Assembly (NCBI GenBank): GCA_963815035.1
Contig: CAWFFC010000026.1
Location: forward strand, 97,587 to 161,586
DNA from: an uncultured Gemmataceae bacterium
GTDB taxonomy: Bacteria > Planctomycetota > Planctomycetia > Gemmatales > Gemmataceae
DNA: 64,000 nt
Direction of reading: 5' to 3'
Shown piece by piece: positions 6,890 to 59,600 of this stretch (positions are counted from its first letter, which is position 1; each line of letters begins with the position of its first letter). The notes under the pieces are model-generated. The model ran no database searches. It saw nothing but the letters and a program-made list of their open reading frames with translations, and was not told where the DNA came from. The translations under genes were made by a program, and so were the position numbers.

Positions 6890-7858
6890 TCAGGCGGCGC
6901 GCGAGCGCATTGAGGCGATTTCCAACACCGTCAATTCGCGGATCAACTCGGCGCTATGCGGCCGATTGGCCGGATGGCGAGCCAGCAACCGCCGCAGCAG
7001 TCGCGGCAGCGCCGGCGGCCACGGCCCCATCTGGTCGCGGAGGTCGGCGGGCCGATTCTTCAGGTGCGCTCGCAGCGTTTCGGCCATCGCCGCCGCTTCA
7101 AAGGGTAACTCGCCGGTGAGCAATTCGTAGATCATCACGCCGAGGCTGAAGAGGTCGGCGCGGCCGTCGGCGTTCGCATTCAGGTCGCAGATTTCCGGGG
7201 CGAGATAATTCGCCGTGCCCAGGATCAGCCCGCGTTCAAGAAACTCCGCGTTTTCGCCAGGCCGGTGCGCGAAACCCAAGTCGATAAGCACCGCCGCCCC
7301 GGCGCCGGTCAGCCGCACGTTATCGGGCTTCACGTCGCCATGCACGAAACCGGCCAAGTGCAGCGCCGAAAGCGCTTCGGCGACTTGCCGGGCAATCCAT
7401 ATCGCCGAATTGACGCTCAGCCGATATTCACGACGCAGCCGCGCCCGCAACGACTCGCCGGGCAGTAAATCCATGGCCAGGAAGTAGGGCCGCTCGTGCG
7501 TGTGATTGTCGCGAACGCGAATGAGATGCGGATGGGCGACGGACGTGGCGACTAGCGCTTCGCGCTGTAGCAGCGTCAACGCCGACTTGGAATATCCTGA
7601 ATCGCGTCGCGGCAACTTCACCGCGACCCGCCGCCCCGCAAAATCAATTCCGGACCAGACGACCGTGAACGGTCCACCGCCGAGCGGCTCAATCATTTCA
7701 TAGCCGGGAATGCGCGGCAACGGTTCCATATCGGAACAATCGGCATAACCGCGCCAGAAGTTTAATTGCTTGCGACGGGGGGAGTTTGCTCCGCGAAAGC
7801 ACTGCTTGGCCGCCAGCGACGCTTTTGAATAATGGCGGAATCGACCATAGCCGGCCAA
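6890..7858 (-). CDS. Ser/Thr protein kinase (non-RD, HGDVKPDN), catalytic domain only; the true start is probably near 7729
   Basis: YEMIEPLGGGPFTVVWSG..VAVK (Gly loop and VAIK-like), HGDVKPDN, DLGFA, APE motifs; no C-terminal extension. Confidence 0.8.
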   Translation of the reverse strand: MAGYGRFRHYSKASLAAKQCFRGANSPRRKQLNFWRGYADCSDMEPLPRIPGYEMIEPLGGGPFTVVWSGIDFAGRRVAVKLPRRDSGYSKSALTLLQREALVATSVAHPHLIRVRDNHTHERPYFLAMDLLPGESLRARLRREYRLSVNSAIWIARQVAEALSALHLAGFVHGDVKPDNVRLTGAGAAVLIDLGFAHRPGENAEFLERGLILGTANYLAPEICDLNANADGRADLFSLGVMIYELLTGELPFEAAAMAETLRAHLKNRPADLRDQMGPWPPALPRLLRRLLARHPANRPHSAELIRELTVLEIASMRSRAA

Positions 7859-8192
7859 GCAGTGGCAATCCGGAGTTCACGGCAGCATCGATCCAGCATC
7901 GATCCAACATCGATCCAACATCGATTGCCACTGCTTGGCCGCGCGTCCGGGCTTCGCTAGTCATCAAGAGACTTGCCACGCGGCCAAGCAGTGCTGTCAG
8001 AACACTAATCTTGCGACGGAGAGTGGCGTAGTCGCTCCGCGAAAGCACTGCTAGGCCGCCAGCGATGCTTTTGAACAATGGCGAATCGACCGAATTCACG
8101 TCAGCATCGATTGCCACTGCTTGGCCGCGCGTCCTGACTTCACCGCCCATCAATGACTTACCACGCGGCCAAGCAGTGCCGTCAGAACTCGA
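7766..8192. repeat. Tandem array of ~185-245-bp repeat units, each carrying inverted copies of the core GCACTGCTTGGCCGC / GCGGCCAAGCAGTGC plus an 11-bp microsatellite (CATCGATCCAA x3); MITE/REP-like
   Basis: Units start at 7766 and 8009, with a partial third unit at 8193. The core motif occurs 7 times here and twice more at 59528/59584. The overlapping 195-aa ORF 7698..8285(-) has internal repeats that simply mirror the DNA repeats. Confidence 0.8.
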
Positions 8193-8218
8193 ATCTTGCG
8201 ACGGGGGAGTCGCGTAGG

Positions 8219-8289
8219 GTGGGTCGAGCATGGATGCGAGGCCCACCGGTCGGCATGGTGGGCCTCGCATCCATGCTCGACCCACCCTA
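8219..8289. terminator. Perfect 31-bp-stem GC-rich hairpin immediately 3' of the nucleoside symporter gene
   Basis: GGGTGGGTCGAGCATGGATGCGAGGCCCACC-ggtcggcat-GGTGGGCCTCGCATCCATGCTCGACCCACCC. Confidence 0.5.
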
Positions 8290-8306
8290 CGCTTGTCTAC
8301 GGTGTG

Positions 8307-9641
8307 TCACACCGGCACGTCGGAATCCTTCTTTTTCGGCGGGTGGAAAAACAAGAGCAGAATCAATGCCGCGATCAATGCCATCCCCGCCGGGAACAGA
8401 AACCAAGTTCGAAACTGCTCCTTCGGCGTGCCCTCGGGGAAGAACTTGCTGATTTGCCCGCACAAAAAGTTCCCCATCAGCGGCCCGGCGCCGAGAATCA
8501 GCATGTTGAAGAGCCCCTGCGCGCTGGAGCGAATGTCTTTGGGAAAGAACTCATCGACGAAGATGTAAACCGTGGCAAAGAAAAACGCGTAGCAAATGCC
8601 ATGCACCATATTGACGGCGACCGCCGGGGCGACCGCCGGGAAGAAAGCGAAAATAGTAAAGCGCGCCGCGTGTCCGAGAATCCCGATCACCATTGTCAGC
8701 CGCCAGCCAAGCGACTTCAAAACGTAGCCGAGCACGGCCATGGTTAGAATCTCGGCGATCTGGCCGACGCTCATTGCGGGCATGATCCAGTTGCCCGGCA
8801 CTCCCGCGGCTTTTTCCAGATAACTTCCGGTCCAGTAGAAATACATTTGAAGAATCGTGGCGTCAAAAAAAGTCACGATGAAGAGCACGAGCACGAACGG
8901 ATGGCGAAGCAGCGATAAGGCCTCGGCCCACGCCAACTTTGCTCCGCCCGATTGGCTGGCCGGCTTCGGTGGGACGTTCGGCAATGTCAAGGCAACGAGC
9001 GACAGAAGCAGCGACGCGGCGCCCGCGGCGATGAAGGTGTAACTGGTTGCATGGCGAAGTTCGTCGCCTTTCAGGGAACTGCCCAACGCATCGCCAAGCC
9101 ACTTGACGACGCCAACGTCCGCCATTTTTGGAACGTGGTCCCAGTCGACGAGAACGAACACCATTGGCCATGCCGCCGCGATCCAGCCGATCGTGCCCCA
9201 CATTCGCAGCGGACCGAATTCCTTGGCCGGGTCCTTCAAATTCGCAAACGCAATCGAATTCACGATTGACATGGTCGGCACGTAAAAAAGCGTGTGCAGA
9301 GCCATCAGGCCGAAGAAGGCCCAAAAACTTGCGCTGGCCGCTCCCTCCGGCTTCTTGACCCAGAAGAGGCCAAGAATCGCCAAGCCGCCGATGAATTGGC
9401 TGAATGACAAGAATTTCTGCGCCGCGAAATTTCGATCGGCGAACTGATTGCTGAAAAACATCGCGATCAAGGCCGATACGTTGAACGCCGACAGGATGGC
9501 GAACTGCTCCGTGCCGTCAAATCCCAGGCTCGGCAGGTAGCCGAAGATCAACGGGAACCACGCCCCCCAAACAAAGAATTCCAAAAACATCATCATCGAC
9601 AGGCGCGTCTTCAGCAGCGGCAGATCTTCGTTCGCGGACAT
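8307..9641 (-). CDS. MFS nucleoside:H+ symporter (NupG/XapB family)
   Basis: Intact 444-aa ORF with 12 predicted TM helices; the N-terminal MMFLEFFVWGAWFPLIFGYL is typical of the Nuc_H_symport family. Confidence 0.8.
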   Translation of the reverse strand: MSANEDLPLLKTRLSMMMFLEFFVWGAWFPLIFGYLPSLGFDGTEQFAILSAFNVSALIAMFFSNQFADRNFAAQKFLSFSQFIGGLAILGLFWVKKPEGAASASFWAFFGLMALHTLFYVPTMSIVNSIAFANLKDPAKEFGPLRMWGTIGWIAAAWPMVFVLVDWDHVPKMADVGVVKWLGDALGSSLKGDELRHATSYTFIAAGAASLLLSLVALTLPNVPPKPASQSGGAKLAWAEALSLLRHPFVLVLFIVTFFDATILQMYFYWTGSYLEKAAGVPGNWIMPAMSVGQIAEILTMAVLGYVLKSLGWRLTMVIGILGHAARFTIFAFFPAVAPAVAVNMVHGICYAFFFATVYIFVDEFFPKDIRSSAQGLFNMLILGAGPLMGNFLCGQISKFFPEGTPKEQFRTWFLFPAGMALIAALILLLFFHPPKKKDSDVPV

Positions 9642-12327: not shown

Positions 12328-12415
12328 TGTTTAGCCGCGCAGGCCGCGGCAGCGGCGTAAGCACGCTTCGATTCAAAACGCGCTGCGCCGCTACCGCGGC
12401 CTGCGCGGCTAAACA
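12328..12415. terminator. 30-bp-stem hairpin (one mismatch) between two convergent genes
   Basis: TGTTTAGCCGCGCAGGCCGCGGCAGCGGCG..loop..CGCCGCTACCGCGGCCTGCGCGGCTAAACA. Confidence 0.5.
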
Positions 12416-33658: not shown

Positions 33659-33670
33659 CTCGCGAAGACC

Positions 33671-33730
33671 ATGGGGACAAGCCCCGTGGCTCGTAAACTC
33701 TTGATTTGCGAGCCACGGGGCTTGTCCCCG
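33671..33730. terminator. Bidirectional perfect hairpin (21-bp stem) between two convergent genes
   Basis: GGGGACAAGCCCCGTGGCTCG-taaactcttgatttg-CGAGCCACGGGGCTTGTCCCC. Confidence 0.55.
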
Positions 33731-33742
33731 TGGAACTCATTC

Positions 33743-34412: not shown

Positions 34413-34490
34413 AGCCGATTTCGGTGCTGTAGCCGCCCTCTATGGGGCCGGGGCCGATTACGGTGCTGTAGCCGGCCTCTATGAGGCCGG
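34413..34490. repeat. Tandem direct repeat (2 x ~39 bp) in the upstream region of the M16 peptidase gene
   Basis: CCGATTTCGGTGCTGTAGCCGCCCTCTATGGGGCCGGGG / CCGATTACGGTGCTGTAGCCGGCCTCTATGAGGCCGGGG. Confidence 0.7.
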
Positions 34491-34739
34491 GGCCAACCGG
34501 GCTCAAAGAGCCCAGCTACAGGTGCGACACTAGATCATAAATCGGAAGGCTTTGGGCAGCGACTGCAACAATCAACGCACAAGAGCATAACCGATTCGGG
34601 AGCCTGAACTTCCGCCCCAATTCGGCAGGTTGACGCCAAAGTTACAAACCCGCCAATTTGCCCGGCTTGACGATTGAGCGTGGCGCCGCAAGGATAATAG
34701 TTTGCCTCAATCGATTTCCATTTTTCAGGAACACCCTGC

Positions 34740-41627: not shown

Positions 41628-41786
41628 GAGTCAATCCTCCACCGACTTGAACCACAGAGTCACAGAGAACACCGAGAAAGCAAAAAGCGAAATCAAAAAA
41701 CTAAACGATGAAAAACCATTGGGATCTCGCCTATCTGAAGTCCGTTCAAATAGTTTTCTCTGTGTCCTCGGTGACTCTGTGGTGAA

Positions 41787-42945: not shown

Positions 42946-43030
42946 AGCGCAGGCTAAAGCCTGCGGCTACGACCACCCGTCGCTACGACCACCCGTCGCA
43001 ATACACCCGTAGCCGCAGGCTTTAGCCTGC
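42946..43030. repeat. 24-bp-stem hairpin whose loop contains a direct repeat (CGACCACCCGTCGC x2), lying between the hemP-like and decarboxylase genes
   Basis: CGCAGGCTAAAGCCTGCGGCTACG..loop..CGTAGCCGCAGGCTTTAGCCTGCG. Confidence 0.6.
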
Positions 43031-43078
43031 GGAGGTGTCGACGGTGAAGTCAGTTTATGGACGAGAACTTGGAAAAGG

Positions 43079-54925: not shown

Positions 54926-57332
<2,407 letters not shown>

Positions 57333-58723: not shown

Positions 58724-59126
58724 TTACGCAGGGAACAATTCATCGTTGATTAACAGTTGACGAAGTTCGACTCGCAGCGGATCATTGATCCGAAGCAGAT
58801 TAATCGTGACCCGACCGATGGCAGTGCGCCCGATCAGACACGGGCCATTCCATCGAAAATGACGAACCCAGCTGTGCCGTCGCGGATGGAACAGCGGAGT
58901 AAGTTTGCCTCCTTGCTTCTCTAGACTTGCGAGATCCGAGCCTTTGAATGAGTTTGCAATGGAAACAACTGAGCGCGAGATTGCTGGCGATCGTTTTGCC
59001 GCCATGTTTCCTGGCAATGATGTGATCGATTTCAAATGGAATCTCATCGCACTCCTGCGGAATTCGGCAATACTCGCAACAGTCGCCGGCACGTAGCCGG
59101 ACCAGTCGCGTTAGCGCTGCATCCAT
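58724..59126 (-). CDS. HNH endonuclease, one frameshift near 58920
   Basis: ..CCEYCRIPQECDEIPFEIDHIIARKHGG..NLALSCFHC.. (HNH) continues in the frame of ORF 58724..59092 (..TPLFHPRRHSWVRHFRWNGPCLIGRTAIGRVTINLLRIN..). Confidence 0.7.
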
Positions 59127-59133
59127 GAGCTGC

Positions 59134-59436
59134 CTACGAAGAAACTCGTTTGCCGGACTTCATCCGTAGCGTTCGTCGGGCGTTCGCTTTCAGGATTGAT
59201 AGCAACGTGCCGGCCTTTGCGTAAGCCTGCAACTCCTGCTTTTCCTCGGCAGACAGATCGTCGGCCTGATTGCGCGTTACAAGTTCGTGTATCCGTGTCT
59301 TGTCGCCTTCGCTGAATTCGCGATTGAGTATGTAGCGAGCCAACAAGGGCGGCATCGTTCCGTTGTTGTCGCCCAAAATGCGTGCCAGGATTTGAATCTC
59401 ACTTGCGACGTTGAGGTCGACGGCCGGTGATTTCAT
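59134..59436 (-). CDS. Hypothetical ~100-aa protein immediately upstream of the HNH endonuclease gene
   Basis: MKSPAVDLNVASEIQILARILGDNNGTMPPLLARYILNREFSEGDKTRIHELV..; the N-terminal extension of ORF 59134..59619 runs through the repeat element and is not credible. Confidence 0.45.
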   Translation of the reverse strand: MKSPAVDLNVASEIQILARILGDNNGTMPPLLARYILNREFSEGDKTRIHELVTRNQADDLSAEEKQELQAYAKAGTLLSILKANARRTLRMKSGKRVSS

Positions 59437-59520
59437 CGTTCGCCTCCGCTTGCTTGCCATGCCTATCATAGGGCCAAGGCGACGCGCATGTCGAGAGTCG
59501 TTCAGGAACCCGCACTTGTG

Positions 59521-59600
59521 TCGTATTGCCACTGCTTGGTCGCCTTCGAGAGCTTCGCCATCAATCCCAACCGTCGCTGGCGGCCAAGCAGTGCCATCGC
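59521..59600. repeat. Dispersed copy (inverted) of the CACTGCTTGGCCG palindromic element seen in the tandem array at 7766-8192
   Basis: ATTGCCACTGCTTGGTCGCC..CGTCGCTGGCGGCCAAGCAGTGCC is the reverse complement of GGCACTGCTTGGCCGCCAGCGACG..CCAAGCAGTGGCAAT at 7796-7870. Confidence 0.75.

What the first reader, a model, noticed from the sequence alone, without database searches (positions are those of the whole stretch)
7766..8192. Tandem array of a MITE/REP-like structured repeat with a CACTGCTTGGCCG palindromic core
Two and a half tandem units (~185-245 bp) lie between a kinase gene and a transporter gene. Each unit contains two inverted pairs of GCACTGCTTGGCCGC/GCGGCCAAGCAGTGC, so each can fold into two stem-loops. 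One unit also carries a CATCGATCCAA microsatellite. The spurious 195-aa ORF across the region shows matching peptide repeats. An inverted copy of the same element is at 59521-59600. The family therefore looks mobile or amplifiable. It may be a non-autonomous element, a regulatory RNA family or a protein-binding array.
Basis: seen in the sequence. Interest (0 to 1): 0.55.

Follow-up and report, generated by a model that had tools for sequence, protein, structure and literature searches.

The report
Planctomycete REP hairpin cluster (RAYT-associated)
The repeat array is a cluster of small hairpin-forming "REP" elements, the kind copied around bacterial genomes by a domesticated transposase (RAYT); this family is specific to planctomycetes and apparently undescribed, but the type of element is well known.

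Summary
The 577-bp spacer between a nucleoside transporter gene and a Ser/Thr kinase gene (both on the minus strand) holds four intact hairpins and one half hairpin. All have the arms CACTGCTTGGCCG/CGGCCAAGCAGTG. A fifth intact copy lies at 59.5 kb. Oriented by a 6-nt 5' "foot" (GATTGC), all copies align over the loop too, so the unit is one oriented element of about 80 nt. In the array it forms head-to-head pairs, and one pair has been duplicated in tandem.

The same spacer is 33-83 bp with no hairpin in four more distant relatives, and 311 bp with one pair in the closest relative. The array is therefore a recent gain followed by local amplification, and the 195-aa ORF across it is spurious.

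The same foot and basal stem (GTGTGC-CACTGCTT) occur in Gemmataceae and Planctomycetaceae genomes and in 63 metagenome contigs. They flank, on both sides, genes that pass NCBIfam's cut-off for REP-associated tyrosine transposase. This held in 3 loci found through the repeat and in 5 of 5 loci found through the protein.

It is a REP/BIME-like cluster of a RAYT-linked planctomycete family: a new member of a known kind. No RAYT gene lies in this window, and mobilisation by RAYT is inferred, not shown.

The parts
7730..8306 (.). Whole intergenic spacer (577 bp) between the transporter stop codon (8307-8309, minus strand) and the kinase start codon (7729-7727, minus strand). It is expanded by repeat elements.
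   Evidence: ORFs and Pfam. The same spacer is 311 bp in L072, 73 bp in L073-75, about 83 bp in L076/77 and 33 bp in L078.
7795..7870 (-). REP copy 'B', oriented on the minus strand. Foot GATTGC is at 7870-7865. Stem arms are 7864-7852 and 7812-7800, with a 39-nt loop.
   Evidence: (-22 kcal/mol, z -5.2).
7886..7925 (.). Microsatellite CATCGATCCAA x3.6 in the linker between the two feet of the head-to-head pair.
   Evidence: It is absent from the other unit and from L072.
7923..7999 (+). REP copy 'A', oriented on the plus strand. Foot GATTGC is at 7923-7928. Stem arms are 7929-7943 and 7979-7993, with a 35-nt loop.
   Evidence: (-25.4 kcal/mol, z -5.4).
8036..8100 (-). Truncated 'B' copy. The loop remnant and one arm (8046-8058, CACTGCTAGGCCG) remain. 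A deletion of about 59 nt removed the foot-side arm and part of the linker.
8109..8184 (+). REP copy 'A' of the second unit. Foot GATTGC is at 8109-8114. Stem arms are 8115-8129 and 8164-8178.
   Evidence: (-24 kcal/mol, z -5.9).
7769..7781 (.). Unit-boundary direct repeat CTTGCGACGG(G/A)G. It is also at 8010-8022 and 8195-8207 and marks the edges of the tandem duplication.
   Evidence: (family D6).
8212..8292 (.). Neighbouring element of a different family: a 36-bp perfect inverted repeat with a 9-nt loop, each arm starting GCGTAGGG (GTAG tag). It lies just after the transporter stop codon.
   Evidence: -53.7 kcal/mol, z -14.
59523..59599 (+). Dispersed single REP copy. Foot (G)TATTGC is followed by arms 59530-59544 and 59579-59593 with one G.T pair. 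The loop is homologous to that of 'B'.

Best explanation
The array is a BIME-like cluster of REP elements from a planctomycete-specific REP family whose partner enzyme is a RAYT (REP-associated tyrosine transposase, HUH/Y1 class).

Each element is about 80 nt and oriented. It has a 6-nt 5' foot (GATTGC in this lineage, GTGTGC in most others), an invariant basal stem CACTGCTT, a variable apical stem (GGCCG...) and a 35-39-nt loop. Two copies sit head to head (feet facing) as a REPIN-like doublet.

Shown: that doublet entered the transporter-kinase spacer in the common ancestor of this genome and its closest relative. In this lineage it was then duplicated in tandem, followed by a ~59-nt deletion in one unit and a microsatellite expansion in the other.

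Inferred from what is established for E. coli TnpA-REP and from the gene-repeat association seen here: a RAYT encoded elsewhere in the genome recognises the foot plus hairpin on single-stranded DNA, and cuts and rejoins it. This would spread copies such as the one at 59.5 kb. The local growth from one doublet to two looks like ordinary slippage or unequal recombination, not transposition.

Any effect on the neighbouring genes (termination or mRNA stabilisation between transporter and kinase) is possible but untested.
For: (1) The same core as an inverted repeat occurs in 8 loci of three planctomycete genomes (Gemmataceae, Planctomycetaceae, a Schlesneria-labelled MAG) and in 63 metagenome contigs.
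(2) Genes in L036, L053 and L028 score 86.6-89.8 bits against NCBIfam NF047646 'REP-associated tyrosine transposase' (cut-off 80). Each is flanked on both sides by these hairpins. RAYT remnants abut hairpins in L055, L062, L064 and L060.
(3) Starting from the protein instead: five homologues (56-70% identity to the L036 protein) were looked up, and all five genes are flanked on both sides by hairpins with the basal stem CACTGCT(T) (or close variants such as CACTGTT); the GTGTG(C/G) foot is visible in four of the five loci, while in L079 the outer flank reads GGG (L079-L083).
(4) The only solved structure that matches is E. coli TnpA-REP, 4ER8. The HUH (PEHVH), RFWQ and EYIHxN tyrosine motifs are invariant in all 8 proteins.
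(5) Orthologous-site test: no hairpin in the spacer in L073-L078, one doublet in L072, two and a half units here. The kinase-side boundary is identical, at TTAAACTTCTGG.
(6) All 7 copies from the window and L072 align through the loop when oriented by the foot. The dispersed 59.5-kb copy was therefore copied as a whole unit.
(7) Stem changes on both sides that keep pairing: CACGGC../..GCCGTG in L072..GGACG/CGTCC.. in L028/L029/L048..TTGCCCG/CGGGCAA.. in L053/L034. That is 28 both-sided Watson-Crick cells in total, while positions 2-8 almost never vary.
(8) Tandem arrays of REP-bearing units with a 182-184-bp period flank the RAYT in L079, so arrays like this one are a normal form of the family.
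Against: No RAYT gene lies in the 64-kb window (tblastn), and the rest of the source genome could not be read. The partner enzyme in this organism is therefore unverified.

The window lineage's foot (GATTGC/TATTGC) differs at two positions from the GTGTGC foot next to the RAYT genes examined.

Copy number per genome is unknown. There are only two loci in 64 kb here, and only 6 exact hairpins in a Gemmataceae MAG whose three hit contigs alone total about 7 Mb. That is low compared with classic REP families.

The foot is not the canonical GT[AG]G, and loops of 35-73 nt are far longer than the 2-5 nt of classical REPs (criteria in PMC6006769).

The covariation tally is noisy: it also contains 82 one-sided breaks, partly from chance matches and from a fixed internal loop in L079.

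No cleavage or transposition has been demonstrated for any member.
Confidence: 0.8

Rival explanations
1. A MITE: a deletion derivative of a DDE-transposase insertion sequence. The inverted 13-mers would be terminal inverted repeats, and the element would move by cut-and-paste with target-site duplication.
For: It is short, non-coding, hairpin-forming and dispersed, and it shows presence/absence between relatives. A DDE_5 gene lies about 2.4 kb from the RAYT in L080.
Against: No target-site duplication is visible at any copy. The one recurrent neighbouring gene with a mobility function is a Y1/HUH RAYT, not a DDE enzyme. Elements have a one-sided foot plus stem, which is REP architecture, not symmetric IS ends. 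In L080/L081 the repeat shrinks to a ~30-nt palindrome with a 4-nt loop, too small for a MITE.
Confidence: 0.05
2. A transcribed cis-acting RNA element (terminator, attenuator or mRNA-stabilising hairpins) selected for its effect on the transporter and kinase genes, rather than a mobile DNA element.
For: The array lies between two co-oriented genes that are only 33-83 bp apart in relatives. The whole spacer folds strongly as RNA (-297 kcal/mol, z -12). REPs in E. coli are known to terminate transcription and stabilise mRNA (reviewed in PMC6006769).
Against: No Rfam family matches. No intrinsic-terminator signature was found. The element is absent from the orthologous spacer in four relatives, so it is not needed there. 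Copies occur in both orientations within one array. Basal stem and foot are conserved in sequence rather than only in pairing. This could still be a secondary, exapted effect.
Confidence: 0.07
3. attC-like recombination sites of an integron or similar cassette system. The hairpins would be the boundaries of mobile gene cassettes.
For: In L057, L022 and L064, two hairpins about 945 bp apart enclose small toxin-antitoxin pairs. The content differs (DUF433/DUF5615 versus PemK-type) beside a 90%-identical LssY_C gene. The 59.5-kb copy abuts a small HNH two-gene module. Planctomycete attC sites are known to be taxon-specific (PMC8352920).
Against: There are no R''/R' boxes (RYYYAAC/GTTRRRY) and no extrahelical bases; stems are perfect. 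Cassette genes lie in opposite orientation relative to the hairpins in L057 versus L064. No recurrent integrase appeared among neighbouring ORFs, whereas RAYT did. In the window the hairpins are about 65 bp apart with no cassette between them.
Confidence: 0.03
4. The array's copy number is an assembly artefact: a single doublet mis-assembled into two and a half units.
For: Repeats of this kind break or inflate short-read assemblies. Most RAYT-bearing contigs in the database are under 2 kb.
Against: The two units differ by a ~59-nt deletion, a 33-nt microsatellite expansion and scattered substitutions (85-94% identity). A collapsed or duplicated assembly would not produce these differences. An independent relative (L072) has the same doublet at the same site.
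Confidence: 0.03

Closest known systems
REP / BIME / REPIN elements with their RAYT (TnpA-REP), as in E. coli (PDB 4ER8), Pseudomonas fluorescens and Stenotrophomonas
   Same: Short extragenic hairpin with an unpaired 5' foot at one end. Copies occur in inverted pairs and in clusters. A single HUH/Y1 transposase-like gene is flanked by the same hairpins (a REPtron). Insertions are lineage-specific. Changes on both arms keep the pairing.
   Different: The foot is GTGTGC (GATTGC here), not GT[AG]G. Most copies carry a 35-73-nt loop instead of 2-5 nt. Foot and basal stem are conserved across at least two planctomycete families (Gemmataceae and Planctomycetaceae), whereas REPs are usually species-specific. 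Clusters can be regular 182-246-bp tandem arrays.
TnpAY1 subclasses 2.4 and 2.6 of Quentin et al. 2018 (PMC6006769; Bertels groups 4 and 5)
   Same: Motif pattern xHVH / WQ / YIHxNP. [quoted passage not shown]
   Different: Those subclasses were described mainly in Cyanobacteria and Bacteroidetes. The planctomycete proteins in that paper were class 3 (Y----Q motif, CnGA foot), which these are not. I did not place these proteins in that phylogeny.
MITEs such as Correia/NEMIS, ERIC and RUP
   Same: Size (65-150 bp), long hairpin potential, intergenic position.
   Different: No target-site duplication, no DDE parent IS; associated with a Y1 enzyme.

Membership tests
REP/REPIN-RAYT system | Short palindromic, hairpin-forming repeat located between genes | tested here: met
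   All window copies lie in spacers. They fold with z = -3.7 to -5.9.
REP/REPIN-RAYT system | The RAYT gene is flanked by copies of the same repeat (REPtron) | tested here: met
   Seen in L036, L053, L028 and L079-L083, 8 of 8 RAYT loci examined. Not seen in the window itself, which has no RAYT gene.
REP/REPIN-RAYT system | The partner protein is a Y1/HUH enzyme of the RAYT type (HUH motif, catalytic Tyr in YIxxNP) | tested here: met
   NCBIfam NF047646 at 86.6-89.8 bits, cut-off 80. The only PDB match is 4ER8 TnpA-REP. PEHVH, RFWQ and EYIHxN are invariant in 8 proteins.
REP/REPIN-RAYT system | Conserved 5' tetranucleotide GT[AG]G (or CGTC) at the foot of the hairpin | tested here: not met
   The foot is GTGTGC in 101 of 232 arms and GATTGC/TATTGC in the window. 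A conserved one-sided foot exists, but its sequence is not canonical.
REP/REPIN-RAYT system | Inverted doublets (REPIN/BIME) as the common arrangement | tested here: met
   Head-to-head pairs in the window and in L072. Pairs also occur in L003, L016, L020, L050 and L053.
REP/REPIN-RAYT system | Many copies per genome (tens to hundreds) | tested here: inconclusive
   Two loci in this 64-kb window. 6 exact hairpins in one Gemmataceae MAG under an exact-match scan. 14 hairpins in 20 kb of L079. No whole genome could be scanned with mismatches allowed.
REP/REPIN-RAYT system | RAYT binds and cleaves the REP on single-stranded DNA | not testable with these tools
   Needs biochemistry.
Integron attC site | R''/R' core sites RYYYAAC ... 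GTTRRRY with extrahelical bases, plus a nearby IntI gene | tested here: not met
   Neither box is present at the hairpin ends and stems are perfect. No recurrent integrase among neighbours. No attC covariance model was available to run.
MITE | Terminal inverted repeats matching a parent IS, and target-site duplications | tested here: not met
   No duplicated flanks in about 80 copies inspected. No parent IS was found.
Rfam RNA families | Score at or above a family's gathering threshold | tested here: not met
   There were no hits at the hairpins. The only matches were sub-threshold miRNA-like hits to the long palindrome.

The most novel reading that the evidence does not exclude
The foot plus basal stem (GTGTGC-CACTGCTT) and its RAYT clade may form one ancient, largely vertically inherited REP-RAYT partnership spanning several planctomycete families. 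That would be unusual, because REP sequences are normally species-specific. Its hairpins have an expandable apical part (from a 4-nt loop to 70 nt), and pairs of hairpins may bound exchangeable gene slots: different toxin-antitoxin pairs sit between hairpins beside a 90%-identical gene in L057 versus L022. This would mean the RAYT or host recombination can move REP-flanked cargo.
Probability: 0.15. Interest if true: 0.6.

Novelty: new member of a known kind. Interest (0 to 1): 0.33.

Why it matters
It explains an odd-looking array as ordinary genome furniture and removes a spurious 195-aa ORF from consideration. It also defines a REP family for Planctomycetota (foot GTGTGC, basal stem CACTGCTT) with its RAYT clade, which has 2,462 database homologues at E <= 1e-20. 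I found no description of this family in the searchable literature. It could be used to annotate planctomycete intergenic regions and to explain fragmented assemblies around these repeats. It also extends REPIN-RAYT population studies beyond Proteobacteria. The cross-family conservation of the recognition module is the one feature a specialist might find unexpected.

Tried and rejected
- Rfam on the region, on 20 related loci and on the whole window: no family at the hairpins.
- A literal search of papers for the 12-mer returned only unrelated primers.
- tRNA scan of the window: none.
- Integron attC idea, prompted by toxin-antitoxin pairs between hairpins: rejected for lack of core sites, inconsistent cassette orientation, and RAYT rather than an integrase as the recurrent neighbour.
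- tmRNA/T-loop idea, from a GGTTCGATTC flank: dropped. The flank is simply conserved sequence at orthologous RAYT-remnant loci.
- Looking up the source contig through the exact transporter protein failed twice, and the cluster carries no name. The organism is placed only as a planctomycete.
- The exact-match genome scan did not return the window's own genome, so that genome is not in the collection.
- The promoter/terminator scan gave nothing above chance.
- The covariation tally is contaminated by chance palindromes (for example L015, L037, L047, L068, L069). It is used only qualitatively.

Full report
**What is there.**
Window 7730-8306 is the spacer between a nucleoside/H+ symporter-type MFS transporter (8307-9641, minus strand) and a Ser/Thr protein kinase (6890-7729, minus strand). 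It contains inverted 13-mers CACTGCTTGGCCG / CGGCCAAGCAGTG at 7800/7852, 7929/7981 and 8115/8166. A lone arm with one mismatch sits at 8046. A further pair lies at 59530/59581. With up to two mismatches the motif occurs 12 times in the window, against 2.5 expected; no shuffle out of 100 reaches 12.

Direct repeats spaced 185-246 bp show that a two-hairpin unit is present two and a half times. The 13-mer CTTGCGACGG(G/A)G marks each unit edge. An 11-bp microsatellite sits at 7886-7925. Each hairpin folds well as single-stranded DNA (z = -3.7 to -5.9).

**The unit is one oriented element of about 80 nt.**
Each hairpin has a GATTGC (or TATTGC) 'foot' on only one side. When all copies are oriented by that foot, the five window copies, the half copy and two copies from a relative align through the loop as well (consensus ...CTTCGCCAT.AATCAA...). 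The two hairpin 'types' in the array are thus the same element in opposite orientations, arranged head to head with the feet facing across the linker. The copy at 59.5 kb is a dispersed singleton of the same element.

**It is a recent gain at this site.**
Syntenic contigs were found through homologues of the transporter. All carry the same order ABC2 membrane protein - transporter - kinase, and every contig that extends past the kinase also shows the 273-aa ORF (269 aa in L078) and the beta-CASP nuclease. The transporter-kinase spacer varies as follows:

| Contig(s) | Transporter identity to window | Spacer | Hairpins |
|---|---|---|---|
| L078 | 74% | 33 bp | none |
| L076/L077 | 79% | about 83 bp | none |
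| L073-L075 | 84% | 73 bp | none |
| L072 | 86% | 311 bp | one head-to-head doublet |
| window | - | 577 bp | two and a half units |

The kinase-side edge is the same in all, at TTAAACTTCTGGCGCGG. The L072 doublet is homologous to the window's unit. Relative to it, one window unit lost about 59 nt, including an arm, and the other gained 33 nt of microsatellite.

The simplest history is one insertion of a doublet, then a tandem duplication, then decay. The 195-aa ORF across the array has no counterpart in relatives and is spurious.

**The family is widespread in planctomycetes.**
An exact hairpin pattern found 8 loci in three genomes of the species-representative collection: a Gemmataceae MAG, a Planctomycetaceae MAG and a Schlesneria-labelled MAG. 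A slightly looser pattern found 63 metagenome contigs from soils and freshwater sediments. In those, the usual form is GTGTGC-CACTGCTTGGCCGC...loop...GCGGCCAAGCAGTG-GCACAC, with an invariant stem and a very variable loop. GTGTGC precedes CACTGCTT in 101 of 232 arms. Clusters occur elsewhere too, for example six hairpins in 1.1 kb in L028.

**It is tied to a RAYT.**
Clustering all ORFs from the fetched loci gave one recurrent neighbouring gene family with a mobility function. The others were an orthologous toxin-antitoxin pair in 4 loci and ordinary genes shared by overlapping contigs. Full copies of the recurrent family lie in L036, L053 and L028. N- or C-terminal remnants lie in L055, L062, L064 and L060. 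The full copies pass NCBIfam's equivalog cut-off for 'REP-associated tyrosine transposase' (86.6-89.8 bits against 80) and hit Pfam Y1_Tnp weakly. Each is bracketed by the hairpins.

The reverse test used five database homologues (56-70% identity; NCBI names some relatives 'REP-associated tyrosine transposase [Planctomycetota/Thermoguttaceae]'). They were located on long contigs, and all five are flanked on both sides by hairpins with the same basal stem or a close variant of it; the GTGTG(C/G) foot is visible in four of the five (L079's outer flank reads GGG). The flanking repeats take different forms:
- In L080 and L081 the repeat is a classical ~30-nt palindrome, GTGTGCCACTGCTTC-nnnn-GAAGCAGTGCC.
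- In L082 the loop is 73 nt.
- In L079 the gene sits between two tandem arrays of hairpin units with a 182-184-bp period.

The conserved module is therefore foot plus CACTGCT(T). The apical part is free to grow.

The only solved structure matching the protein is E. coli TnpA-REP (4ER8), with the HUH and tyrosine motifs aligned. PEHVH, RFWQ and EYIHxN are invariant in all eight proteins aligned.

**Structure versus sequence.**
Variant copies show changes on both arms that keep pairing: L072 position 4; L028/L029/L048 position 11; L053/L034/L079 position 10. This gives 28 such cells. Positions 2-8 hardly vary at all. That pattern fits a hairpin whose base is read in a sequence-specific way and whose top only has to pair. 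The tally is noisy and some loose metagenome hits are probably unrelated palindromes.

**How it probably works.**
From published work on E. coli TnpA-REP and IS200/IS605 enzymes (summarised in PMC6006769), a RAYT binds the hairpin on single-stranded DNA. It uses the bases at the 5' foot to position cleavage, and it can cut and rejoin. I infer the same here. That would account for the dispersed 59.5-kb copy and for the original arrival of the doublet.

The step from one doublet to two is more simply explained by slippage or unequal exchange between the many identical 13-19-nt arms. The link in this organism therefore rests on the shared repeat. The window's foot differs from GTGTGC at two positions.

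**Comparison with known systems.**
This is the REP/BIME/REPIN-RAYT kind. It departs from the textbook form in four ways:
- the foot is not GT[AG]G or CGTC;
- loops are tens of nucleotides long;
- foot and basal stem are conserved across planctomycete families, although REPs are described as species-specific (PMC6006769);
- clusters can be regular tandem arrays.

The protein motifs resemble subclasses 2.4/2.6 of Quentin et al., not the class 3 proteins that paper reports for Planctomycetes. Surveys of REPs mention Planctomycetes only in general terms. I found no description of this family.

**Alternatives.**
The following were considered and rank low, for the reasons given under the rival explanations: a DDE-type MITE, an RNA regulatory element, attC-like cassette boundaries, and an assembly artefact.

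**Verdict.**
It is a cluster of a planctomycete REP family linked to a RAYT: a new member of a known kind, of moderate-to-low interest. The cross-family conservation of the recognition module and the REP-bounded toxin-antitoxin slots are the points worth a specialist's second look.

Noticed in passing
window 8212-8292: A 36-bp perfect inverted repeat with a 9-nt loop (-53.7 kcal/mol, z -14). Each arm starts GCGTAGGG, so it carries the canonical GTAG tag. It looks like a REP doublet of a second, classical family. It is unique in the window and sits where relatives have a small terminator-like hairpin.
   Followed up: partly
window 12328-12415, 33669-33733, 41651-41783, 42948-43031, 56343-56467: Five more long intergenic inverted repeats (24-43-nt arms). 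The one at 42948-43031 again has a CGTAGCC (GTAG) end and encloses a 16-bp tandem repeat. The one at 56343-56467 is built from C and G runs. The genome seems to carry several hairpin-repeat families.
   Followed up: no
L057 9324-10335; L022 1264-2275; L064 316-1337: Two REP hairpins about 945 bp apart enclose a two-gene toxin-antitoxin pair. The pair is DUF433+DUF5615 in L057 and antitoxin+PemK/MazF in L022 and L064. In L057 and L022 the neighbouring LssY_C gene is 90% identical. A RAYT 5' remnant adjoins the slot. This may be a REP-bounded exchangeable slot.
   Followed up: partly
window 58800-59454 (minus strand): An HNH endonuclease gene (108 aa) preceded by a small 106-aa ORF lies directly beside the dispersed REP copy at 59.5 kb. 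It is a small, possibly mobile or toxin-antitoxin-like two-gene module.
   Followed up: no
L079 85-660, 9203-9823, 10625-11345: Three tandem arrays of REP-bearing units with a 182-184-bp period (92-96% matches). Two of them bracket the RAYT gene. The hairpins here carry a fixed 3-nt internal mismatch.
   Followed up: partly
L036 1120-1374: A second, partial RAYT-like reading frame (43% identity to the C-terminal half) lies just beyond the right-hand hairpin of the intact RAYT.
   Followed up: no
window 34414-34494: A 39-bp tandem repeat, 2.1 copies, 92% matches. It is probably inside a coding region and was not examined.
   Followed up: no
L050 12326-12370: An Acido-Lenti-1 sRNA match above Rfam's gathering score (44.4 bits) on a contig that also carries the REP hairpins. 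It is unrelated to the finding.
   Followed up: no
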